Both the position numbers and the translations under genes were made by a program. Below the pieces are notes generated by a model, which saw only the letters and a program-made list of their open reading frames with translations, searched no databases and was not told the origin of the DNA. From a phage, in assembly GCA_011939005.1 (NCBI GenBank), contig GCA_011939005.1_4858.1: a stretch of DNA of 64,000 bases; one strand, given 5' to 3'. Below, piece after piece: positions 10,589 through 41,848 of this stretch; position 1 is the first letter of the stretch; each line of letters begins with the position of its first letter.

Positions 10589-11121
10589 AGCTCCACCCAA
10601 ATCAGTTTAAAGGTATCACCTTCTAAGCCAGTCGGATGAATAATCATCGCTTCGGTATAGATAGGCTCTTCTTCTGCAATGCGGTGTTCAGCTGCTAAGC
10701 CTGAAAGGTGCATGTAGAGGTCTTCATCCATATCCCCGTTAAAAGATGAGGTCAGGATGAAAGGTGTGGATTCTGCGATTTGCAAAAGCGTTTCTTTGCT
10801 AATCTGCATCTCCATTGTCCGACGTCGTTCCATCCAACTGCCTTGTTCGTGGATATACGGGTCGGTATTAATGCGAACGACAGGTTCCGTAGACACACCC
10901 AGACCACGCGACATCATCTGGATAGCCAGAAGCGTCCACCATTCTTGTTCAGCTATCGGGAAACCGATAGCTTTCATCGTCCCGTCCGGTTGTGGAACGT
11001 GCAGTTGTCCACGATGTTCGTCTGGAAATTCGATGATCTTCTGACCATTGACAGGAATAAACGGCGGTTCGTCCGTAGCAACCACCACTTTAGGTTTGAA
11101 TGGAACGACGTTGTCAACCAT
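10585..11121 (-). CDS. hypothetical protein
   Basis: 178-aa ORF, ATG start, coupled to downstream gene. Confidence 0.55.
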   Translation of the reverse strand: MVDNVVPFKPKVVVATDEPPFIPVNGQKIIEFPDEHRGQLHVPQPDGTMKAIGFPIAEQEWWTLLAIQMMSRGLGVSTEPVVRINTDPYIHEQGSWMERRRTMEMQISKETLLQIAESTPFILTSSFNGDMDEDLYMHLSGLAAEHRIAEEEPIYTEAMIIHPTGLEGDTFKLIWVEL

Positions 11122-33997: not shown

Positions 33998-34057
33998 GTT
34001 AATAGTCCTTATAAAAGTCAATGGTATTTTCAGATGATTAGTTACTGCTGTAAAAAA

Positions 34058-34288
34058 CTAGTTACGGTCGGAATTAAAGACGTGCCAGGTACTACGCCAG
34101 CGAAAGAATCGGGTCATGAAACCACGCACGTGGTAGCCTGAGAACAACATCCAGATGGCAAGAAAGAGTTGCGCCCATGGGGACGTGAGTTCCATCAGAT
34201 GTGCGACAATCGCACCGATTACCAACATTACCGTGGAGAATAGCAAACCGTACATCATCGGAATGTTGTGGCTATAGCGTTTCTCCAT
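34058..34288 (-). CDS. small two-helix membrane protein (holin-like topology)
   Basis: Two hydrophobic helices (GLLFSTVMLVIGAIVAHL; WAQLFLAIWMLFSGY) and basic C-terminus. Track start 34324 is GTG; first ATG at 34288; start uncertain. Confidence 0.4.
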   Translation of the reverse strand: MEKRYSHNIPMMYGLLFSTVMLVIGAIVAHLMELTSPWAQLFLAIWMLFSGYHVRGFMTRFFRWRSTWHVFNSDRN

Positions 34289-34334
34289 CCAGTAGAGAAA
34301 ATTTATTAAACGTTTCACGAGCACACATCCAAGA

Positions 34335-34371
34335 ATTAAATAAAAGGCGGTCAGACCCGAAGGTCTGACCG
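34335..34371 (-). terminator. rho-independent terminator (UUCG loop on minus transcript)
   Basis: Stem cggtcagacc / ggtctgaccg with loop cgaa (34348-34371), A-rich run upstream on plus strand. Confidence 0.6.
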
Positions 34372-34375
34372 TTAA

Positions 34376-34969
34376 TTACGCTTCGGCCTCAAAGAACGGC
34401 TGGTTCGGTACCACTGCATATTCGAGCACGAAAAGATGTTCTGGGGCATCTTCTGCTCGCCACAGTTTGTGACACGTTGCCAGTTTTTCCAGGATGGTCA
34501 ACCAGCTGAGCTGGCAGAAAGCACGGTCGCCGAAGAACAGTTTCTGCAGTGCAATCGACACATCCATATACGCCTGTTTGAAGTCGAGTTCTTTATCGTA
34601 ACCCGCCGACTGTCGCCACGTCAGCACGAAACCTGCTTCGGTTTCGTTAATTGCTGGACGTAAACCACAAATCCACATCAGCGCCAGATTAACGTTCCAG
34701 TCGAATTCGATACCTTCGTCTTCGTCATCACCAAACGCCGCGTTTAACGCATCGTAGAAACCGTGGTTCTCTGCGAACCATTCGCCATACTCAACGTATA
34801 CCGGTGCTTCGACAGCTTCCCCATCGACTTCACCGATAGGACGCTCTACATAGTTCGGGTTGGTTTGAACGTGTTCCGCACCCGCGCGAATTAATTCGTA
34901 GACATCTTTGGCGGTGATTTGTGCGGCTGTTTTAAGACCTGGATACCAGGGGCGTGTTACGAGTGTCAA
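34376..34969 (-). CDS. hypothetical protein (apparent TTG start)
   Basis: 197 aa; no in-frame ATG/GTG near the 5' end; TTG at 34969 has strong RBS aaggag and overlaps upstream stop by 4 nt. Confidence 0.5.
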   Translation of the reverse strand: MTLVTRPWYPGLKTAAQITAKDVYELIRAGAEHVQTNPNYVERPIGEVDGEAVEAPVYVEYGEWFAENHGFYDALNAAFGDDEDEGIEFDWNVNLALMWICGLRPAINETEAGFVLTWRQSAGYDKELDFKQAYMDVSIALQKLFFGDRAFCQLSWLTILEKLATCHKLWRAEDAPEHLFVLEYAVVPNQPFFEAEA

Positions 34970-35688
34970 AGCAATGCTCCTTTCATGATAGTGTTATTTG
35001 CCAGTAGTGTACCGGCCGCAGGTGATATTTTGGTGTACAGCGTATCCCAGATTTTCTGAAGCTCAGCGACGCGTTGGTCGCGGTCTTCCTTCGCAAAAGC
35101 AAGCTGACGTGTTTCAGCTTTCGGTGGCGTCATTTTCGCACCGTAGAATGCTGCGTCTTTTCGGTAGCTGGCCATCCAGCGTTTCCCGACCGATGATTTC
35201 TTTTTAATCATCGCAACAGCAGCGCTCTCACCGAAGCGGTAGCCTAATGCGATTTCGGCTGTGCTCGGCTTGCGTTTGAGTTGTTTTGTCAGATGATCCT
35301 CGATGTGTTTCATGTAAACAGCAGCAAGCTGTACAGCATATTTCGGTTTATTAAGGTCTGCGTTCTTTGGGATGTTAAGTTGTTTCCCATACAGACGTAT
35401 CATGGAGCGTTTAGTGCCTGTCGTCATTTGGACAACACTACTAGCACTGCTCGATTTATTCTTACCCACGTTTTTATTAAAACGGGATTCGCGGTAAATG
35501 GTGGTCGCAAGCATCCCGGCATGTACACCTTGCTTTTGAGATGCAGAGACGATGAGAGGTTTAATCTCATTGAACTGGTCCTGGATAAGGACGAATTCTT
35601 TTTGGTGTTTGTTACTGGTGGTCTGGTAAGAAGCGTTGCTGTTGAATGTGGTCACTGCTACCAGAAGAAATAAAATGGTGCGAAACAT
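34966..35688 (-). CDS. secreted lytic transglycosylase-like protein (candidate endolysin)
   Basis: 240 aa; N-terminal signal peptide MFRTILFLLVAVTTFNSNA; ESRFNKNVGKNKSSSASSVVQMTTGT aligns with the SLT motif of the large virion protein at 1-4578. Confidence 0.55.
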   Translation of the reverse strand: MFRTILFLLVAVTTFNSNASYQTTSNKHQKEFVLIQDQFNEIKPLIVSASQKQGVHAGMLATTIYRESRFNKNVGKNKSSSASSVVQMTTGTKRSMIRLYGKQLNIPKNADLNKPKYAVQLAAVYMKHIEDHLTKQLKRKPSTAEIALGYRFGESAAVAMIKKKSSVGKRWMASYRKDAAFYGAKMTPPKAETRQLAFAKEDRDQRVAELQKIWDTLYTKISPAAGTLLANNTIMKGALL

Positions 35689-35779
35689 GGATGTATCTCC
35701 AAACGGATTTATACTTTTCCGTTCCCAATCCGGGAAGACGGCGCGGACGGCATTGTGCTCCTTTGTAATGTGCCCTGAT

Positions 35780-35791
35780 GATAATATCTAT
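35780..35791. promoter_or_regulatory. conserved motif GATAATATCTAT (third copy)
   Basis: Exact 12-mer also at 26688-26699; overlaps the stop codon of the gene at 35788-36288 and lies upstream of the secreted SLT gene. Confidence 0.35.
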
Positions 35792-36288
35792 TTGAAACTT
35801 TTTGGGATGATTTTCTCTGCTTCCCTCAGCAGGGTGTCCGGTAAATAGAATCGATAAGTCTGCTCCGTGTGCTGTAGTCTTTTCTGTAAGTGTATAAAGA
35901 TTTCCAATCGCTCATGGTAACGTAACCAACCGTTAGCCATCCCTAGGGGCGGTATCGCAATCCCTCCTTCTAAGTCTTCCCCTAGTCGCGCCAGCGCATC
36001 AATGCCGGACGTGACATAGTAAATCTGCGATTTATAGCGAAAATGGGTTTTAGTAGGAAGGAGTATTACCCCTTCCTCAGGATAACAATAGACCTCACCG
36101 ATAACGATTTGCTCTTTACGACATTTCTGGCGATAGTCATTATAAAGCGATGGGAAGCGTTCTCGGCACGCCAAAGCAATGCCCCTTCCCATTGCACCAA
36201 CACAGTTAACTGTAACGACCTTGAAGCGCTCAGGCGCGTTAAACAGGTCGTGGGAGATAATAGCCTCGTCGATCAGTTCTAGTGACAT
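35788..36288 (-). CDS. putative macro-domain (ADP-ribose-binding/processing) protein
   Basis: 166 aa; VVTVNCVGAMGRGIALACRER resembles the macro N-terminal Gly-rich motif and IAIPPLGMANGWL resembles the C-terminal phosphate-binding loop. Motif-level only. Confidence 0.45.
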   Translation of the reverse strand: MSLELIDEAIISHDLFNAPERFKVVTVNCVGAMGRGIALACRERFPSLYNDYRQKCRKEQIVIGEVYCYPEEGVILLPTKTHFRYKSQIYYVTSGIDALARLGEDLEGGIAIPPLGMANGWLRYHERLEIFIHLQKRLQHTEQTYRFYLPDTLLREAEKIIPKSFK

Positions 36289-36487
36289 CTATTGCCATAC
36301 CCCATTGTGAAATAACCGGAGACTGAAGCAACGATTCCAGCTCAGTAAGAACTCTGGCTTTTGCTTCTTCGCGCAACTTACGGACTTCCGGATCGGGTTT
36401 ACCTGCGCCTAAATATTGGGGTTCTGTTTGTGGGGTAGGGAAACCACAGAAAGAACTAACCATTATTCCGATGATTGTTTTTTGCAT
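36239..36487 (-). CDS. small hypothetical protein
   Basis: 82-aa ORF, ATG with RBS aaaggaa; 3' end overlaps the next gene by 50 nt. Confidence 0.35.
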   Translation of the reverse strand: MQKTIIGIMVSSFCGFPTPQTEPQYLGAGKPDPEVRKLREEAKARVLTELESLLQSPVISQWGMAIDVTRTDRRGYYLPRPV

Positions 36488-36910
36488 TTAGCTATTCCTT
36501 TTCACCCAGGTTTGTACCGCTGACTCGAAACCTTCGTGTTCGATACCGAGTCGTTTCATTGCCAACATAGTGTTGAGGCTATTCGTAATTTCTTCACGGT
36601 AGCAATGGTCGTCCATCTTACGCCAACACTTCTCCGGGTCAACACCTAAGCGTTGGAGTAGATACGCCTCACGCACCATACCAGGCCGCCAGAATTTAGG
36701 GCGGGTAATCGCGATTTCAATCATGGGTGTCATGTCCAACGTGTGCGCGAGAATACTAACCGGCGTTTCCCCAACTTTATCACGTAACGCTAAACGTAAC
36801 CACCACTGAACGTTTGCTTTGGTTTCAGGTAACAGATCGTAGAATAAGGCTGTTTCTTCTTCTGATAAATGATCGTATAGTGATTTTGTTTCGCGAATAG
36901 CGGTAACCAT
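36488..36910 (-). CDS. hypothetical protein
   Basis: 140-aa ORF, ATG start. Confidence 0.5.
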   Translation of the reverse strand: MVTAIRETKSLYDHLSEEETALFYDLLPETKANVQWWLRLALRDKVGETPVSILAHTLDMTPMIEIAITRPKFWRPGMVREAYLLQRLGVDPEKCWRKMDDHCYREEITNSLNTMLAMKRLGIEHEGFESAVQTWVKRNS

Positions 36911-36928
36911 TTTAATGCTCCTTTAGAT

Positions 36929-37447
36929 TTAATCAATCTCGCGTTTAGGGCTCCTGTGAAACTTCACTTCAGGATTATCCTTAAATGTTTCCCAGATAAG
37001 GGACGCACCACCAAGCTCTTTGGTTTTCGTGGTGCGCAAGTGTGAGTCGCCGAGCATAACAGCACAACGTCCTTTTGCCATATACTTTTTAATTTTTTCA
37101 ACCATTTTAGCTTCACGAATATAAAAAGAACGGCTAAAGTTTACAGCCATTCCCTTTTTATCCTTGATATCTTTAGCGTAGGTTGCATCGCTCCAGTCAT
37201 CGATCCCAATAGCAGGGATGCCGAGTTTCTTAGCCAACTCCAGCCCCATGGGCCCAATAGAGTACATCTTCTCCTTTAATGCCTTATCTTGCGCTTTTGC
37301 AGTGTGATATTCATACGGCCCCAGTTCTTCACACAGTAAAAAATCGTATGGTTTTTTCCGATGGTTATCGATGATCGCCCATTCAACACGATTACGATCG
37401 GCCGTGGTATGAATTTCCCCATATATGTCAACACGAATGTCCGTCAT
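36929..37447 (-). CDS. hypothetical protein
   Basis: 172-aa ORF, ATG start. Confidence 0.5.
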   Translation of the reverse strand: MTDIRVDIYGEIHTTADRNRVEWAIIDNHRKKPYDFLLCEELGPYEYHTAKAQDKALKEKMYSIGPMGLELAKKLGIPAIGIDDWSDATYAKDIKDKKGMAVNFSRSFYIREAKMVEKIKKYMAKGRCAVMLGDSHLRTTKTKELGGASLIWETFKDNPEVKFHRSPKREID

Positions 37448-37698
37448 TTTAATTCCTCAAAAACTATAGGCACCGGCAGCGTACCAAGCGCTGCTTTAAT
37501 ACACGTACTCAGCGGAGTATCATCGAACGCAACACGACCGATAGTACCCACGTTGATGTGTTTTGGATTTACGGGTAAGAACTCCTTCGCCCGTTCGTAC
37601 TCAGCCCAACAGACATCGGTGTTTAAAGCTGAAAACCCAGGACGGTGAAACATAAATAGCACTCCTCGCGTAAAAATACCCCACTCATAGTGAGGCAT
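37444..37698 (-). CDS. hypothetical protein
   Basis: 84-aa ORF, ATG start, ATGA-coupled to downstream gene. Confidence 0.45.
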   Translation of the reverse strand: MPHYEWGIFTRGVLFMFHRPGFSALNTDVCWAEYERAKEFLPVNPKHINVGTIGRVAFDDTPLSTCIKAALGTLPVPIVFEELK

Positions 37699-37723
37699 AA
37701 TCGTAAGGAGTGCTAAAACAGGA

Positions 37724-38212
37724 CTATGCTACCGCAGTCCTTAAAGGTTCATCTGCTTCCGCAGGAACCTGCTTCGTAAATTCAAGCCATTGTCCGTCGG
37801 TAGAGACTGTCTTGTCAAAACCGCGAGCGGTAAAGAACGCAATACCAGCTTCCTGGCAAGCGTATATTCCCCCATGCGCATTGGTGAACTGTTCGTTCAC
37901 TTCAAGCGCATCAAAAATCTGCGTCATCGTTTTACGACGGCGTGCCATTTCAGACACGAACATCGTACGAATCTTCAGAACCCCAGCGATTACGCGATAC
38001 AAACAGTAACCAACAGGGGTACCCCCTTCCAGAGCAACACAAGCACGGTTCCCCGCCAACAGTTTCTCCAGAGTGAGGTTCGGAATCTCACCTTTTTCGA
38101 TATGGAGTATGGTACGTTGGTGGTTCAGAAATTTATAATGCAGCCCCAACAGCTGTTTATTTTGTGCTTCCGTTAAATCTGAAGATGAGGAAAGAATGAC
38201 AATTTCGGCCAT
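37724..38212 (-). CDS. hypothetical protein
   Basis: Track start 38239 is GTG without RBS; ATG at 38212 has RBS agga. Confidence 0.5.
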   Translation of the reverse strand: MAEIVILSSSSDLTEAQNKQLLGLHYKFLNHQRTILHIEKGEIPNLTLEKLLAGNRACVALEGGTPVGYCLYRVIAGVLKIRTMFVSEMARRRKTMTQIFDALEVNEQFTNAHGGIYACQEAGIAFFTARGFDKTVSTDGQWLEFTKQVPAEADEPLRTAVA

Positions 38213-38655
38213 GAGCTGAATTCCTAAGTGAGCTTTCACCTGCGATGAAAGCGAGTAACGAAGAATTGCGTTTGTGTTTTCTTAAGTTTACCGGTAAAGC
38301 TTAGCGGTGTATACCGCTGCAGGTAAAGACCAGTTCTCTATCGGAACCGTGTCTTTGATCAACAACGTCGTTGAAAACGCTGCGATGCTGAGGTAACCTT
38401 CCGTCGCCACATTCGCTCATGGCGCTTCTGATTACCACGCCAGTCTTCCCCGACTGTACGTGAAACTGCAAAATCATCCGGCCCGCAGACTTCCGCGATG
38501 TCTGCTAGAAGGTTCTTTGAAGACCCTATAGCCATCCCCGCGCTCGAAAGAACGATACGCCGGGTTGACACGGCCGCCCCTGAACCCACGACCACGGGAT
38601 CAGAGACTGTTTCACTGTTACATGATACTTCTCCCACTTCGTAATTACCCTCCTG

Positions 38656-38763
38656 TTAAAACCAACCTTGCATCAATGCAAGGATTGCGCCTAGGGCGTA
38701 TGCGCCCGCTCCTAGTATCAGGCTACAGACGATACACCCAACCCTTTTCACTAAAATAACCAT
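38656..38763 (-). CDS. tiny hydrophobic peptide (35 aa)
   Basis: Hand-translated MVILVKRVGCIVCSLILGAGAYALGAILALMQGWF; below ORF-track size cutoff; overlaps next tiny ORF (ATG inside the upstream stop region). Confidence 0.3.
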   Translation of the reverse strand: MVILVKRVGCIVCSLILGAGAYALGAILALMQGWF

Positions 38764-38882
38764 GTTGCTACAAACGCTCCGATTGCGCAAATGATAAGCG
38801 TGATACCAACATCTGTCCATGTGGCACCGTCATACGCACCTGTTGCAATCATGGCTGCGTTGACACTATTCACGACTGTCAT
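38751..38882 (-). CDS. tiny hydrophobic peptide (43 aa)
   Basis: Hand-translated MTVVNSVNAAMIATGAYDGATWTDVGITLIICAIGAFVATWLF; below ORF-track size cutoff. Confidence 0.3.
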   Translation of the reverse strand: MTVVNSVNAAMIATGAYDGATWTDVGITLIICAIGAFVATWLF

Positions 38883-39069
38883 AAGCCGGGTCCCTTAAAC
38901 GCGGGGGCTTGCTCCACAGATTACCGAAGTAAACCCCTTCTAAGAACACCAAAACAACTAAGCCCCAAAAGGCAGGCGTAGCGCGAGACATGAAAATACC
39001 GAGTAGCACCACAGTGTGCATTACCACAACTGCCCAAAACTTTAAACGACCAGGTTTACGTCTTGCCAT
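38866..39069 (-). CDS. small membrane protein
   Basis: Track start 39114 is GTG; ATG at 39069 has RBS aaggatgg. Two hydrophobic helices. Confidence 0.4.
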   Translation of the reverse strand: MARRKPGRLKFWAVVVMHTVVLLGIFMSRATPAFWGLVVLVFLEGVYFGNLWSKPPRLRDPAYDSRE

Positions 39070-39156
39070 GGAATGCCCATCCTTTCGTGCGGATAATCCA
39101 ACCCCAGGCACCACGAATCAACCACAGTGCAATACCGGTTAATACGATACCTTCAA

Positions 39157-39348
39157 TCATGTCCGTTCTCCTATATCTCGCCACTCACAACGCGTGTCGA
39201 ACAGACGTTCTTTAAGAGCAGCAGCTAAATAAACGACCGCAGCGATAACCACTACGGTTGCACAAAAGGAGAGGTACAGTACCATCACAACAAACTGAAG
39301 GAACTGAAAACCCCACCAAGCCCATAAGCGCCAACCTTTATGATGCAT
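39157..39348 (-). CDS. small membrane protein
   Basis: 63 aa, Trp-rich N-terminus and one hydrophobic helix (VVMVLYLSFCATVVVIAAVVYLAAAL); start overlaps the stop of the Rad50-like gene. Confidence 0.45.
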   Translation of the reverse strand: MHHKGWRLWAWWGFQFLQFVVMVLYLSFCATVVVIAAVVYLAAALKERLFDTRCEWRDIGERT

Positions 39349-41848
39349 ATTTGATTATTACCCCTTCGTTATACACCGGTGGAAGCGTTACACCTTCTGG
39401 TTCCACGACACAGTAGGTGGCTTCGTTAAGTTTAGAATGAACTTCCGCTTCATGCGAAACGACCAGCAATTGAGAAAACTCTCCCGACAACGCCAACGAT
39501 TTAATGAAGTTAACTAATCGGTTTTTGTGTTCTTCATCCATGCCTTCAGATGGTTCATCCAATAACAAAGGATAATTTTGTAAACCAAGTGCTTTATACG
39601 CCGTTAAACGAAACATCATGTTGAAAATGATACGCTGTGCTTTTGAACCTTTCTTCACGTCAGGCACCAGTTCTTCATGGTCTTTTAATCGCACTGGGAA
39701 TGTATAATCCAAATCCCCGTCGGTTAGATCGCATGGAATAACCTGCATCGGATATGCCCACACCATTTCGATATACCGATTCATTAAATCCATGATGCGG
39801 GTAATCGCAGCATAAAAGTAACGACGCAATAATCCTTTTTCGGGTGAGACGGCATTGATAATCAATCTGGCATGATGGTGTTCTTTGAGCAACTCAGCTT
39901 GCTCTTTTTCCAGTTCCGCTAAACGTGCAATAGCCCCTTCCATTTGACGAAACCGTTCACGAGCTGAAGTATACGCATCGAGCTTCGCTTCGCGTCGGTT
40001 TAACAACTCGCGAACCACGACGTTGTTAACGGAGATGTTCATTTCCGATACCAGATGTTCGTAGCCCTTTTGGAAACGTTCGATTGCTTCTTTGGTTTGT
40101 TGCAGTTGGGTGGTTTCGCGTTCCAGCTCATTGGCTTGTCTGCGGTATTCTATCAGTCGTCGGTTAGCCCCGTCCAGTTGTGAACGGATATGTTCAATTT
40201 TCTGGCTCAGCGCACCATCAACGTTACCTACTGCAGCAACAGCCTCTTGCCATTCCCGTTCCGCTGTTGCAAGCTTCGCCGATTGACGCAGATACATCAT
40301 GGCCGAATCTAACTCTTCAGTAAAGGCACGTGCAATGGCACCGTAACGATCCCGCGCCGTGGTGAAGATATCCAGCTCCTGCAGTTTACGGAAAAACAAA
40401 CCGATAACGGGATGATTGGAATACGACATGACGATTTCGCGAATCGTACGTAAGCTACGGACGTCCTCTTCAATCTCTTTGCGGTCACGCAAAAGACTAT
40501 CCATTTCGTCTTTCAGCTGTTTTTTCCAACCTTCATTATCGTTGATGGCCTTTTCAATTTCAGGTAACGACTTACGAATCCCAGGACGGAAACGGTGGTT
40601 ACACTGTGGACAATCAACTTCTGCAGTTTCTAAGAAGTGTTGACGGTCGTGGTATAAACCGTGTAGCACATTCTCACAACGTTGCAACTTTTCAGATAGA
40701 CCCGCAGAGGTTAAATCCATACCCTGTAAACGCTTCTCTAACGCTCCCAGGCGCTCTGTTGTCTTTAACTGGTCCAGATGCATGGACAACGGTAAATTCC
40801 AGTTACAGGCGTCGTTTAACGCGTTCTGAATGCTATCCACGTCGATGCGGGTACCTTCAAACAGAGCCGGGAACATCCAGTTCTGTTGGAATGTTGCCAG
40901 TTCCTGTTTTAAGCTGTCGATTGTTTGTTTTAGACCGGTATGGTTGCGCATCAGATACGCTTGACGCGACTCCTCATCCAGTAGCTGTGACAACTCTTTA
41001 TTGTACATGTTGCATTCAGTTTCAGCAGAGGCAGCTTGCTCGCGCCAGGCAACCACACGACTTTGAAACTCGTTAATCAGTTCGTCAGAAGGCAGAACGC
41101 CATAACGTTCCATAATGAGTTTTACAGCCGGTTGCAACGAAGCAATGCGTTTCCGGATACTATCAACCGAAACGGCGTTATCTAAACCGGGTCTCGCTTC
41201 AATGGTGCGGTTTAGTTCCTGAAGCTCAACGTCCAGTTCTTTCAAACGAACTTCCAAACGTGCACGATCTTCTTCATCGTCAACGACGCGCATTTTTGCT
41301 TCGCCGATTTTTCGTCCGGTGTGCTCAATGGCCCCACTTAAACTGGAAGCGAGTTTACGCAGACGACGATAACAACCAACAACGTACGTCAGATCAGATT
41401 CTGACATTAACGTAAACCATTTACGACGAACTTCAGTGGTGGCGTCTGTTAATAAGGTCTCACCATTAATTAACTCTTTGATTTCTTTGGTGATTCCGGT
41501 TAATTGCTCCACCATGGAGTTGTAAACTTTAGCGTTTACTGAATCTACGATGGAAACACCTTTAGTGATGTTGAAGATACTACAAGACAAAGAAGACCCA
41601 CGTCGCAGGACTTCAAACTTAAGACGGTCGTCCCCAACTAACGCGTAGTTAGTGTAGGAACCACCTTCACGGAATTCTGATTTTGCTGGAGCTAAGGGGA
41701 GAAAAACAGATAGGAGGCTTGTTTTACCGCAGCCGTTGCCACCGAGGATGATGGTAACGGTTGACTTAAGGGTGAAATCAAACGTTTCGATTTCATGTAA
41801 CCCCATGCCGGTAAATCCTTTCAAAATGATACGTTCGACCTTGAGCAT
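39338..41848 (-). CDS. Rad50/SbcC-family ABC-type ATPase with coiled coil and zinc hook
   Basis: 836 aa; Walker A ILGGNGCGKTS; long Glu/Leu/Arg-rich central region; CxxC hook DCPQC; C-terminal Walker B LLLDEPSEGMD and H-loop VVSHEAE. Confidence 0.8.
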   Translation of the reverse strand: MLKVERIILKGFTGMGLHEIETFDFTLKSTVTIILGGNGCGKTSLLSVFLPLAPAKSEFREGGSYTNYALVGDDRLKFEVLRRGSSLSCSIFNITKGVSIVDSVNAKVYNSMVEQLTGITKEIKELINGETLLTDATTEVRRKWFTLMSESDLTYVVGCYRRLRKLASSLSGAIEHTGRKIGEAKMRVVDDEEDRARLEVRLKELDVELQELNRTIEARPGLDNAVSVDSIRKRIASLQPAVKLIMERYGVLPSDELINEFQSRVVAWREQAASAETECNMYNKELSQLLDEESRQAYLMRNHTGLKQTIDSLKQELATFQQNWMFPALFEGTRIDVDSIQNALNDACNWNLPLSMHLDQLKTTERLGALEKRLQGMDLTSAGLSEKLQRCENVLHGLYHDRQHFLETAEVDCPQCNHRFRPGIRKSLPEIEKAINDNEGWKKQLKDEMDSLLRDRKEIEEDVRSLRTIREIVMSYSNHPVIGLFFRKLQELDIFTTARDRYGAIARAFTEELDSAMMYLRQSAKLATAEREWQEAVAAVGNVDGALSQKIEHIRSQLDGANRRLIEYRRQANELERETTQLQQTKEAIERFQKGYEHLVSEMNISVNNVVVRELLNRREAKLDAYTSARERFRQMEGAIARLAELEKEQAELLKEHHHARLIINAVSPEKGLLRRYFYAAITRIMDLMNRYIEMVWAYPMQVIPCDLTDGDLDYTFPVRLKDHEELVPDVKKGSKAQRIIFNMMFRLTAYKALGLQNYPLLLDEPSEGMDEEHKNRLVNFIKSLALSGEFSQLLVVSHEAEVHSKLNEATYCVVEPEGVTLPPVYNEGVIIKYAS

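What the first reader, a model, noticed from the sequence alone, without database searches (positions are those of the whole stretch)
35788..36288. Candidate macro-domain protein heading a cluster of small ORFans
The 166-aa protein shows macro-like motifs (VVTVNCVGAMGRGIA near the N-terminus, IAIPPLGMANGWL near the C-terminus). A phage macro domain could remove ADP-ribose marks laid down by host defence or toxin systems. The following four genes (36488-38212) are uncharacterised and could belong to the same module.
Basis: inference. Interest (0 to 1): 0.6.

Follow-up and report, generated by a model that had tools for sequence, protein, structure and literature searches.

The report
Known phage anti-DarT macrodomain (AdfM)

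Summary
The ORF is real: 35788-36288, minus strand, 166 aa, with both quoted motifs. It is a macrodomain of the DarG type. Family profiles match DarG at E 1e-30 to 4e-32. A profile search of PDB gives DarG macrodomains E 1e-52 to 3e-56, against TARG1 at 7e-12. The AlphaFold model (pLDDT 94) is closest to T. aquaticus DarG (target TM 0.84). The catalytic Asn and Lys (N28, K80) are invariant in 54 homologues.

The window is 97-98% identical to Salmonella jumbo phage SPN3US, and the gene is SPN3US gp196, which RefSeq already calls 'macro domain-containing protein'. It is 69% identical to Asesino gp217 and 36% to PhiKZ gp104. Both are published AdfM proteins ('anti-DarT factor macro'; Cell Rep 2026) that enter the phage nucleus. 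PhiKZ AdfM removes DarT2 ADP-ribose from DNA and protects against DarTG2.

The 'module' idea fails. The four genes lie upstream, not downstream. They are not ORFans, and one is a GNAT acetyltransferase. Their linkage to the macro gene decays quickly, and one (p172) is missing even within the species. No DarT is present.

Verdict: observation confirmed, interpretation broadly right but already known. Low interest. The only open point is a clade-specific Trp (NGG to NGW) in the second ADP-ribose loop, untested enzymatically.

The parts
35788..36288 (-). AdfM-type gene: a stand-alone DarG2-like macrodomain of 166 aa, equal to SPN3US gp196 / YP_009153490.1
   Evidence: ORF. 98.8% identical to the SPN3US copy and annotated there as 'macro domain-containing protein'. 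DarG-family hits. AF2 model pLDDT 94.2 with Taq DarG 5M31 as top PDB match. 69% identical to Asesino gp217 and 36% to PhiKZ gp104, both AdfM.
36175..36219 (-). Loop 1, VVTVNCVGAMGRGIA (residues 24-38): the first ADP-ribose-binding loop. It contains T26 and N28 (equal to Taq DarG T20 and N22, and PhiKZ AdfM N23) and R35 (equal to Taq K29).
   Evidence: Coordinates. T26, N28, G31, M33, G34 and G36 are invariant in 54 homologues. Aligned with Taq and Mtb DarG and with PhiKZ, Goslar and Asesino AdfM. The roles of N22 and K29 are given in PMC5179494.
36049..36057 (-). The PTK motif (residues 78-80). T79 contacts ADP-ribose. K80 is the counterpart of the catalytic lysine K80 of Taq DarG and K84 of TARG1.
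   Evidence: Coordinates. T79 and K80 are invariant in 54 homologues and in alignment A2. K80A inactivates Taq DarG (PMC5179494).
35923..35961 (-). Loop 2, IAIPPLGMANGWL (residues 110-122): the second, diphosphate-grasping loop. G116, N119 and G120 equal Taq G117, N120 and G121. A118 replaces Taq G119 and W121 replaces Taq G122, the latter a clade-specific change.
   Evidence: Coordinates. G116 and G120 are invariant. Position 121 is W in 35 sequences and G in 15 of 54, with W confined to the SPN3US/Erwinia jumbo-phage clade. PhiKZ AdfM, which is active, reads GCANGGL.

Best explanation
The gene encodes the SPN3US-lineage orthologue of AdfM, an 'orphan antitoxin'. It consists only of the macrodomain half of a bacterial DarG2 antitoxin, without the DarT-binding domain and without a partner toxin. 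When the phage infects a host carrying the DarTG2 toxin-antitoxin defence, DarT2 uses NAD+ to attach ADP-ribose to thymidines in single-stranded phage DNA, which blocks replication and packaging. The phage macrodomain binds the ADP-ribose through its two glycine-rich loops and, using K80 with help from N28, cleaves the ribose-thymine bond and restores the DNA. By analogy with its 69%-identical Asesino orthologue, it is probably imported into the chimallin-bounded phage nucleus, where the phage DNA is. Shown here: the ORF, the fold class, DarG-type affinity, conservation of catalytic and ligand-contact residues, orthology to published AdfM proteins, absence of a toxin partner, and absence of a conserved gene module. 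Inferred: enzymatic activity on DarT2-modified DNA, nuclear localisation, and protection against DarTG2 in Salmonella or E. coli hosts.
For: DarG-type identity: NCBIfam DarG E 9.7e-31; PADLOC DarG E 4e-32; PDB phmmer Mtb DarG 5M3I at 1.9e-20 and Taq DarG 5M31 at 8e-19. The family profile gives DarG 2.9e-56, 1.4e-52 and 4.6e-36, against TARG1 6.5e-12, viral nsP3 macrodomains 1e-5 to 1e-7, and the Poa1p-type ADPr-1''-phosphatase 3e-5 over a partial match. The AF2 model has pLDDT 94.2 and pTM 0.90, and its top Foldseek PDB hits are Taq DarG (E 7e-13, target TM 0.84, rmsd 2.0 A), Mtb DarG and T. africanus DarTG, ahead of TARG1. Catalytic N28 and K80 and contacts T26, T79, G116 and G120 are invariant in 54 homologues and align with Taq N22, K80, T20, T79, G117 and G121. 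Orthology: 36% identity and E 2e-25 to PhiKZ gp104; 69% over the full length to Asesino gp217. For PhiKZ AdfM, PMC13309987 shows removal of DarT2 ADP-ribose from DNA in vitro, rescue of DarT2 toxicity, and loss of host range on DarTG2 strains when the gene is deleted. It also shows nuclear localisation for the PhiKZ, PhiPA3 and Asesino proteins. An unrelated phage gives a second precedent: T4 Tk.4, a macrodomain whose knockout sensitises T4 to DarTG2 (bioRxiv 10.1101/2025.11.20.689424). The isolated Taq DarG macrodomain is sufficient as an antitoxin (PMC5179494). The window is 97-98% identical to SPN3US, which has a chimallin homologue, gp244 (PMC9365700). No DarT: neighbours are negative in Pfam and PADLOC, and tblastn of a DarT2 against the whole window gives a best E of 2.7.
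Against: No member of the SPN3US/Erwinia subclade has been assayed enzymatically; for Asesino only localisation was shown. This subclade carries Trp where DarG and PhiKZ AdfM have Gly (Taq G122) in the mobile loop that closes over ADP-ribose, and Phe in place of Taq W83. Either change could alter substrate preference. Pfam's generic Macro model scores just under its threshold. I could not confirm that SPN3US is listed in the AdfM paper's Figure S1, because no supplement is held. Chimallin and PicA were not looked for in this window. Nuclear import is cognate-specific according to PMC13309987, so it cannot be transferred safely by homology.
Confidence: 0.78

Rival explanations
1. It is a TARG1-like eraser of protein or RNA ADP-ribosylation, not DNA ADP-ribosylation. 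It would reverse marks made by other host ADP-ribosyltransferase defences (for example mRNA-modifying CmdT-type toxins) or tune the phage's own ADP-ribosyltransferases.
For: TARG1 is the next-best structural and sequence class and shares the catalytic lysine. The clade-specific G-to-W change in loop 2 and W-to-F at the proposed thymine-stacking position leave room for a shifted specificity. Some actinophage homologues are annotated next to or as ADP-ribosyltransferases.
Against: The affinity to DarG is about 40 orders of magnitude stronger than to TARG1 in the profile search. The orthologous PhiKZ protein acts on DarT2-modified DNA and its deletion phenotype is explained by DarTG2 (PMC13309987). 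No ADP-ribosyltransferase was detected beside the gene.
Confidence: 0.1
2. It is a housekeeping metabolite enzyme, as some database names suggest ('phosphatase', 'Appr-1-p processing protein'). It would hydrolyse ADP-ribose-1''-phosphate or O-acetyl-ADP-ribose, or degrade or sequester ADPr-derived immune signals.
For: PHROG 335 is labelled 'phosphatase'. Several GenBank records use 'Appr-1-p processing' or 'phosphatase'. Iyer et al. proposed that jumbo-phage Macro domains degrade soluble ADPr derivatives (PMC7824862).
Against: These names are inherited generic macrodomain labels. The Poa1p-type ADPr-1''-phosphatase matches only weakly and partially (E 0.05 with the single sequence, 3e-5 with the profile, N-terminal 55 residues only). 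The protein has the Lys-based DarG/TARG1 catalytic set.
Confidence: 0.06
3. This is the first reader's extension, or a toxin-antitoxin variant of it. Either the macro gene works as one functional module with the four adjacent small genes, or it is the antitoxin of a phage-borne DarTG-like pair.
For: The genes are co-oriented and tightly packed. No strong minus-strand terminator-like hairpin lies between about 38666 and 34371, so they may be co-transcribed. GNAT, p84 and p140 stay next to the macro gene in the closest genera.
Against: Linkage decays with distance. p172 is replaced by 31 bp in same-species phage SPLA5c. p82, p140 and p172 are patchy. All four are absent beside the macro gene in EarlPhillipIV, Phobos, PhiKZ and Goslar. 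In other genera the slot is filled by unrelated PHROG families. p172 homologues also occur in other jumbo phages such as PhiEaH1, Klebsiella phage Miami and Shewanella phage SXP01. No DarT/DUF4433 or other toxin hit in the neighbours or the window. The protein lacks the DarT-binding half of DarG.
Confidence: 0.03

Closest known systems
AdfM (anti-DarT factor macro) of chimalliviruses: PhiKZ gp104 (also called Nlp3), PhiPA3 gp108, Goslar gp83, Asesino gp217 (Morgan et al., Cell Rep 2026, PMC13309987)
   Same: Stand-alone macrodomain of about 160-185 aa from a PhiKZ-related jumbo phage. DarG2-like, with conserved catalytic Asn and Lys. 69% identical to Asesino gp217, 36% to PhiKZ gp104 and 31-33% to Goslar gp83. 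In Asesino it also has the same flanks (SbcC/SMC-like gene upstream, SLT transglycosylase and p197 downstream).
   Different: The SPN3US/Erwinia subclade has NGW instead of NGG in loop 2. No enzymatic or genetic test exists for this subclade. Gene neighbourhood is not shared with PhiKZ or Goslar.
DarG2 antitoxin macrodomain of DarTG2 systems (T. aquaticus 5M31/5M3E, M. tuberculosis 5M3I, T. africanus 7OMU)
   Same: Best sequence and structure match. Same fold, and same ADPr-contact and catalytic residues (T20, N22, T79, K80, G117, N120 and G121 equivalents).
   Different: Only the N-terminal macrodomain is present: it matches positions 7-150 of the 338-position NCBIfam model and scores 107 bits against a 250-bit cut-off. 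There is no C-terminal DarT-binding domain and no adjacent DarT gene. It is encoded by a lytic phage, not a bacterial TA locus.
T4 Tk.4, also named AdfM (HIDEN-SEQ preprint, bioRxiv 10.1101/2025.11.20.689424)
   Same: A phage-encoded solo macrodomain with structural similarity to Mtb DarG. Its knockout sensitises the phage to DarTG2. It follows the same 'orphan antitoxin' logic.
   Different: It comes from an unrelated phage lineage that forms no nucleus. I did not test sequence relatedness to the window protein.
AdfN (T4 30.3 and other phage NADAR proteins; PMC11825919)
   Same: The same strategy: a phage-borne orphan copy of the DarG enzymatic domain that removes ADP-ribose from phage DNA.
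   Different: It has a different fold (NADAR, not macro) and a different target (guanosine-linked ADPr made by DarT1), and it does not counter DarTG2.
Human TARG1 / C6orf130 (4J5Q, 4J5S)
   Same: Second-closest macrodomain class. Shares the catalytic lysine mechanism.
   Different: It acts on glutamate-linked protein ADP-ribosylation and uses D125, which DarG-type proteins lack. Similarity is much weaker (16-18% identity; profile E 7e-12 against 1e-52 to 3e-56 for DarG).

Membership tests
AdfM / stand-alone DarG2-type phage macrodomain | Macrodomain fold | tested here: met
   AF2 model with pLDDT 94.2 and pTM 0.90. 161 PDB macrodomain-type matches at E<=1e-3, the top one being Taq DarG at target TM 0.84 and rmsd 2.0 A.
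AdfM / stand-alone DarG2-type phage macrodomain | Closer to DarG2 macrodomains than to any other macrodomain class | tested here: met
   Profile against PDB: DarG 2.9e-56, 1.4e-52 and 4.6e-36, with TARG1 next at 6.5e-12. NCBIfam DarG E 1e-30 and PADLOC DarG E 4e-32 are the only hits in those libraries.
AdfM / stand-alone DarG2-type phage macrodomain | Catalytic Lys (Taq K80) and Asn (Taq N22 / PhiKZ N23) present | tested here: met
   K80 and N28 are invariant in 54 homologues and aligned with the Taq, Mtb, PhiKZ, Goslar and Asesino residues. Their roles are from PMC5179494 and PMC13309987.
AdfM / stand-alone DarG2-type phage macrodomain | Intact ADP-ribose-binding loops (the Taq contacts T20, V31, T79, G117, G119, N120, G121) | tested here: inconclusive
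   T26, I37, T79, G116, N119 and G120 are retained. The G119 equivalent is Ala, as in the active PhiKZ AdfM. The adjacent G122 equivalent is Trp in this clade only, and its effect is unknown.
AdfM / stand-alone DarG2-type phage macrodomain | Detectable homology to an experimentally characterised AdfM | tested here: met
   PhiKZ gp104: 36% identity, E 2e-25. Asesino gp217: 69% identity over 166 of 166 residues, with the same flanking genes.
AdfM / stand-alone DarG2-type phage macrodomain | Orphan: no DarT partner and no DarT-binding domain | tested here: met
   Only 166 aa, covering the macro half of the DarG models. Neighbours are negative in Pfam and PADLOC. No DarT2-like sequence in the 64 kb window (best tblastn E 2.7).
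AdfM / stand-alone DarG2-type phage macrodomain | Encoded by a nucleus-forming (chimallin-encoding) jumbo phage | tested here: inconclusive
   The tested 5.5 kb of the window is 97-98% identical to SPN3US. SPN3US has a diverged chimallin homologue, gp244, according to PMC9365700. Chimallin and PicA were not searched for in the window itself.
AdfM / stand-alone DarG2-type phage macrodomain | Hydrolyses thymidine-linked ADP-ribose on ssDNA; protects the phage from DarTG2; localises to the phage nucleus | not testable with these tools
   These need biochemistry, phage genetics and microscopy. They have been shown only for PhiKZ (all three) and for PhiPA3 and Asesino (localisation) in PMC13309987.
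DarG antitoxin of a DarTG2 toxin-antitoxin system (NCBIfam NF048014 equivalog) | Full-length two-domain protein reaching the equivalog cut-off | tested here: not met
   107.3 bits against a 250-bit cut-off. Only model positions 7-150 of 338 are matched, and 6-147 of 329 in PADLOC.
DarG antitoxin of a DarTG2 toxin-antitoxin system (NCBIfam NF048014 equivalog) | Adjacent darT gene | tested here: not met
Pfam Macro (PF01661) | Score at or above the gathering threshold | tested here: not met
   21.7 bits against 22.0 (E 2e-4), covering positions 2-105 of 118. This is a near miss. Many homologues at 30-63% identity carry a precomputed PF01661 hit, and fold evidence settles superfamily membership.

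The most novel reading that the evidence does not exclude
The stretch between the SbcC/SMC-like gene and the macro gene (about 36239-39337) may be a counter-defence 'island' anchored by AdfM. Its fast-turnover small genes would then be further, uncharacterised anti-defence factors: p172/gp193, which comes and goes within the species, plus the GNAT acetyltransferase, p84, p140 and the overlapping p82. Separately, the Trp-bearing loop 2 of the SPN3US/Erwinia AdfM clade may mark a shifted substrate range, for example other ADP-ribosylated bases or RNA.
Probability: 0.15. Interest if true: 0.45.

Novelty: already known. Interest (0 to 1): 0.18.

Why it matters
It matters little for discovery. The gene is already annotated as a macrodomain in RefSeq SPN3US, and its family (AdfM) has a published mechanism. 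The practical value lies in annotation and phage-therapy host-range prediction. SPN3US-like phages infecting Salmonella, E. coli and Proteus can be expected to resist DarTG2-bearing hosts. Labels such as 'phosphatase', 'protein-ADP-ribosylation protein' and 'hypothetical protein' in many GenBank records could be replaced by 'anti-DarT2 macrodomain AdfM'. The result also shows that the nucleus-forming lineage of enterobacterial jumbo phages keeps this second layer of DNA protection.

Tried and rejected
1. Phage-borne DarTG pair: rejected. No DarT-like hit was found in the neighbours (Pfam and PADLOC) or anywhere in the window (tblastn with P. aeruginosa DarT2, best E 2.7).
2. Conserved five-gene module: rejected by the synteny table over ten genomes and by the p172 indel.
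3. Identifying the small neighbours: NCBIfam and PADLOC gave nothing, and Pfam gave only GNAT for 37724-38239 plus sub-threshold DUF5694 and ChaN hits for p172. A single-sequence AlphaFold model of p172 was unusable (pLDDT 45), so no fold search was run on it.
4. Looking for SPN3US in the AdfM paper's supplement: no supplementary text is held. A literature search for SPN3US gp196 returned one listed paper, which was not read.
5. The sigma-70 promoter scan was uninformative: 7 sites against 6.2 expected. These phages use their own RNA polymerases (my own background knowledge).
6. The fragmented macro-gene copies in several SPFM records were judged probable sequencing or assembly artefacts and not pursued.

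Full report
**Observation.** The interval 35788-36288 holds a 166-aa ATG-to-TAG ORF on the minus strand. The plus-strand reading of the same interval is full of stops. VVTVNCVGAMGRGIA is residues 24-38 (nt 36175-36219), and IAIPPLGMANGWL is residues 110-122 (nt 35923-35961). Because the genes are on the minus strand, the 'following four genes' (36488-38212) are transcriptionally upstream. The macro gene therefore lies towards the downstream end of the cluster, not at its head.

**What the protein is.**
- Pfam's general Macro model narrowly misses its threshold (21.7 vs 22 bits, E 2e-4).
- More specific libraries are unambiguous: PHROG 335 at E 6.6e-30, NCBIfam 'antitoxin DarG' at E 9.7e-31, and PADLOC DarG at E 4e-32.
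- The two DarG models are matched only over their N-terminal macrodomain halves (positions 7-150 of 338 and 6-147 of 329). The NCBIfam score (107 bits) is far below the 250-bit equivalog cut-off.
- Against PDB sequences, the best single-sequence hits are the DarG macrodomains of M. tuberculosis (5M3I, 1.9e-20) and T. aquaticus (5M31/5M3E, 8e-19).
- A profile built from 54 homologues (alignment A1) gives DarG at 2.9e-56, 1.4e-52 and 4.6e-36. TARG1 scores 6.5e-12, alphavirus nsP3 macrodomains 1e-5 to 1e-7, and the Poa1p-type ADP-ribose-1''-phosphatase 3e-5 over a partial match.
- An AlphaFold2 model from A1 is confident (pLDDT 94.2, pTM 0.90). Its best Foldseek matches in PDB are Taq DarG (E 7e-13, target TM 0.84, rmsd 2.0 A), Mtb DarG and T. 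africanus DarTG, followed by TARG1.

**Active site.** Jankevicius et al. 2016 (PMC5179494) give the ADP-ribose contacts of Taq DarG as N8, L9, T20, N22, V31, Q34, T79, G117, G119, N120 and G121. In that study K80A abolished activity and N22A had the next strongest effect.
- In my alignments the window protein has T26, N28, I37, T79, K80, G116, N119 and G120 at the corresponding positions.
- T26, N28, G31, M33, G34, G36, T79, K80, G116 and G120 are invariant in all 54 homologues.
- There are four differences. R35 replaces K29 and F83 replaces W83, both conservative. A118 replaces G119, and PhiKZ AdfM, which is active, also has Ala there. W121 replaces G122.
- The Trp is characteristic of the SPN3US/Erwinia jumbo-phage clade (35 of 54 sequences). 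It is absent from bacterial DarG-like sequences and from PhiKZ.

**Source genome and existing annotation.** Window 34000-39500 is 97-98% identical over its full length to Salmonella phage SPN3US and its relatives of genus Seoulvirus, which were isolated on Salmonella, E. coli and Proteus. The gene is SPN3US_0196 (gp196) in JN641803. In RefSeq NC_027402 it is ACQ60_gp070 / YP_009153490.1, where it is already named 'macro domain-containing protein'. Other records call it 'phosphatase', 'protein-ADP-ribosylation protein', 'putative Appr-1-p processing protein' or 'hypothetical protein'.

**Published function of the family.** Morgan et al. (Cell Rep 2026, PMC13309987) describe a DarG2-like macrodomain found in about half of chimalliviruses and name it AdfM.
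- PhiKZ gp104 removes DarT2-installed ADP-ribose from a TNTC oligonucleotide, and the N23A mutation reduces this activity.
- It rescues DarT2 toxicity in E. coli, and it is required for PhiKZ to grow on DarTG2-bearing strains.
- The PhiKZ, PhiPA3 and Erwinia phage Asesino proteins localise to the phage nucleus.
- PhiKZ gp104 is also the Imp1/PicA import cargo Nlp3 (bioRxiv 10.1101/2024.03.27.586873).
- The window protein is 36% identical to PhiKZ gp104 (E 2e-25). It is 69% identical over all 166 residues to Asesino gp217, one of the proteins named in that paper's Figure 1.
- SPN3US itself has a diverged chimallin homologue, gp244 (PMC9365700).
- Independently, T4 Tk.4, a macrodomain structurally similar to Mtb DarG, was shown to be T4's anti-DarTG2 factor and was also named AdfM (bioRxiv 10.1101/2025.11.20.689424).
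- The parallel NADAR-based orphan antitoxin AdfN counters DarTG1 (PMC11825919).
- The isolated Taq DarG macrodomain is sufficient as an antitoxin.

**Most likely mechanism.** The protein is an orphan DarG2-type ADP-ribosylglycohydrolase. It reverses DarT2 ADP-ribosylation of thymidines in phage ssDNA, probably inside the phage nucleus. Fold, class, residues, orthology and the absence of a toxin partner are shown here. Activity, localisation and the defence phenotype are inferred from orthologues.

**The 'module' claim.** I ran tblastn with the window's proteins against the corresponding loci of ten genomes. Presence next to the macro gene was as follows (yes = homologue detected at E <= 1e-3).

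| Genome | macro | SMC | SLT | p197 | GNAT | p84 | p140 | p82 | p172 |
|---|---|---|---|---|---|---|---|---|---|
| SPN3US | yes | yes | yes | yes | yes | yes | yes | yes | yes |
| SPLA5c | yes | yes | yes | yes | yes | yes | yes | yes | no |
| STsAS | yes | yes | yes | yes | yes | yes | yes | yes | no |
| Asesino | yes | yes | yes | yes | yes | yes | yes | yes | no |
| ChrisDB | yes | yes | yes | yes | yes | yes | no | no | no |
| Kwan | yes | yes | yes | yes | yes | yes | yes | no | no |
| EarlPhillipIV | yes | yes | yes | yes | no | no | no | no | no |
| Phobos | yes | yes | yes | yes | no | no | no | no | no |
| PhiKZ | yes | no | no | no | no | no | no | no | no |
| Goslar | yes | no | no | no | no | no | no | no | no |

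- The macro gene is present in all ten genomes. The SbcC/SMC-like gene upstream and the SLT transglycosylase and p197 downstream stay with it as far as Derbicusvirus (EarlPhillipIV and Phobos).
- In SPLA5c, a phage of the same species, window 36924-37467 (544 bp, holding p172) is replaced by 31 bp.
- In other genera the slot is filled by unrelated PHROG families of unknown function.
- p172 homologues also occur in other jumbo phages such as PhiEaH1, Klebsiella phage Miami and Shewanella phage SXP01.
- None of the neighbours matches DarT, an ADP-ribosyltransferase or any PADLOC model. A DarT2 query finds nothing in the whole window (best E 2.7).
- The genes may well be co-transcribed. The only strong minus-strand terminator-like hairpin lies at 34371-34348, after p197. 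Co-transcription in a tightly packed phage genome is not evidence of shared function.
- The four genes are not ORFans either. Each belongs to a PHROG family, and 37724-38239 is a GNAT acetyltransferase (Pfam E 3.8e-5, above threshold; PHROG 3810 at E 3.9e-42).

**Rivals.**
- A TARG1-like protein or RNA eraser remains possible at low probability, because of the clade-specific loop change.
- A metabolite 'phosphatase' role is a legacy label with weak support.
- A TA or multi-gene module is essentially refuted.

**Novelty and verdict.** However, the gene is already annotated and its family was characterised experimentally in 2025-2026. I rate it 'already known', with low interest. What remains open is modest. 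The first question is whether the NGW loop variant behaves like PhiKZ AdfM. The second is whether the variable stretch upstream is a counter-defence hotspot.

Noticed in passing
window 36239-36487 (-): An 82-aa ORF (SPN3US gp195) overlaps the macro gene's first 50 nt in another frame. It is conserved as protein in STsAS (84% identity) and in Asesino (43%, E 8e-13), where it is unannotated and again overlaps the macro start. It is probably a real overlapping gene. It has no family hit in Pfam, PHROGs, NCBIfam or PADLOC.
   Followed up: partly
window 36924-37467 (p172 gene at 36929-37447, -): There is a presence/absence polymorphism within the SPN3US species: this 544-bp segment carrying the 172-aa gene (SPN3US gp193, phrog_14325) is replaced by 31 bp in SPLA5c. 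The 90%-coverage pattern suggests the same in many SPFM and SPLA phages. Homologues are scattered over 31 phage records, including other jumbo phages such as PhiEaH1, Klebsiella phage Miami and Shewanella phage SXP01. It has only sub-threshold DUF5694 and ChaN (Tiki superfamily) hits on residues 95-139. The single-sequence AF2 model was unusable.
   Followed up: partly
window about 36239-39337: The stretch between the SbcC/SMC-like gene (39338-41848) and the macro gene is a variable accessory region. Its gene content differs between genera: GNAT acetyltransferases (two in Kwan) and various PHROG families of unknown function. The flanks are conserved.
   Followed up: partly
window 34348-34371 (-): A strong terminator-like hairpin (10-bp stem, 7 G-C pairs, T-rich tail) lies just after the p197 gene. 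It suggests that GNAT, the macro gene, SLT and p197 may form one minus-strand transcription unit. Terminator-like sites in 34300-39400 are about twice the shuffled expectation (11 against 4.8).
   Followed up: no
window 35646-35768 (+), equal to L001 7647-7778: RefSeq SPN3US annotates a 43-aa plus-strand 'hypothetical protein' (ACQ60_gp069) in the gap between the SLT and macro genes, partly antisense to SLT. It looks like a gene-caller artefact and is not annotated in Proteus phage 7.
   Followed up: no
GenBank records LR535904, LR535911 and LR535912 (SPFM7, SPFM12, SPFM14) and proteins P0037, P0038, P0042, P0043, P0047, P0050, P0052: Several SPFM phage records show the region broken into up to 40 BLAST pieces, with truncated or frameshifted macro-gene products (111-152 aa, only 13-16% of the query covered by the best local alignment). 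This is most likely sequencing or assembly error and not gene decay.
   Followed up: no
window 38866-39348 (-): Small ORFs with hydrophobic, membrane-like sequences (82 aa at 38866-39114 and 63 aa at 39157-39348) sit just downstream of the SMC-like gene. Short genes are annotated at the equivalent positions in SPN3US (10865-11068 and 11156-11347 in L001).
   Followed up: no
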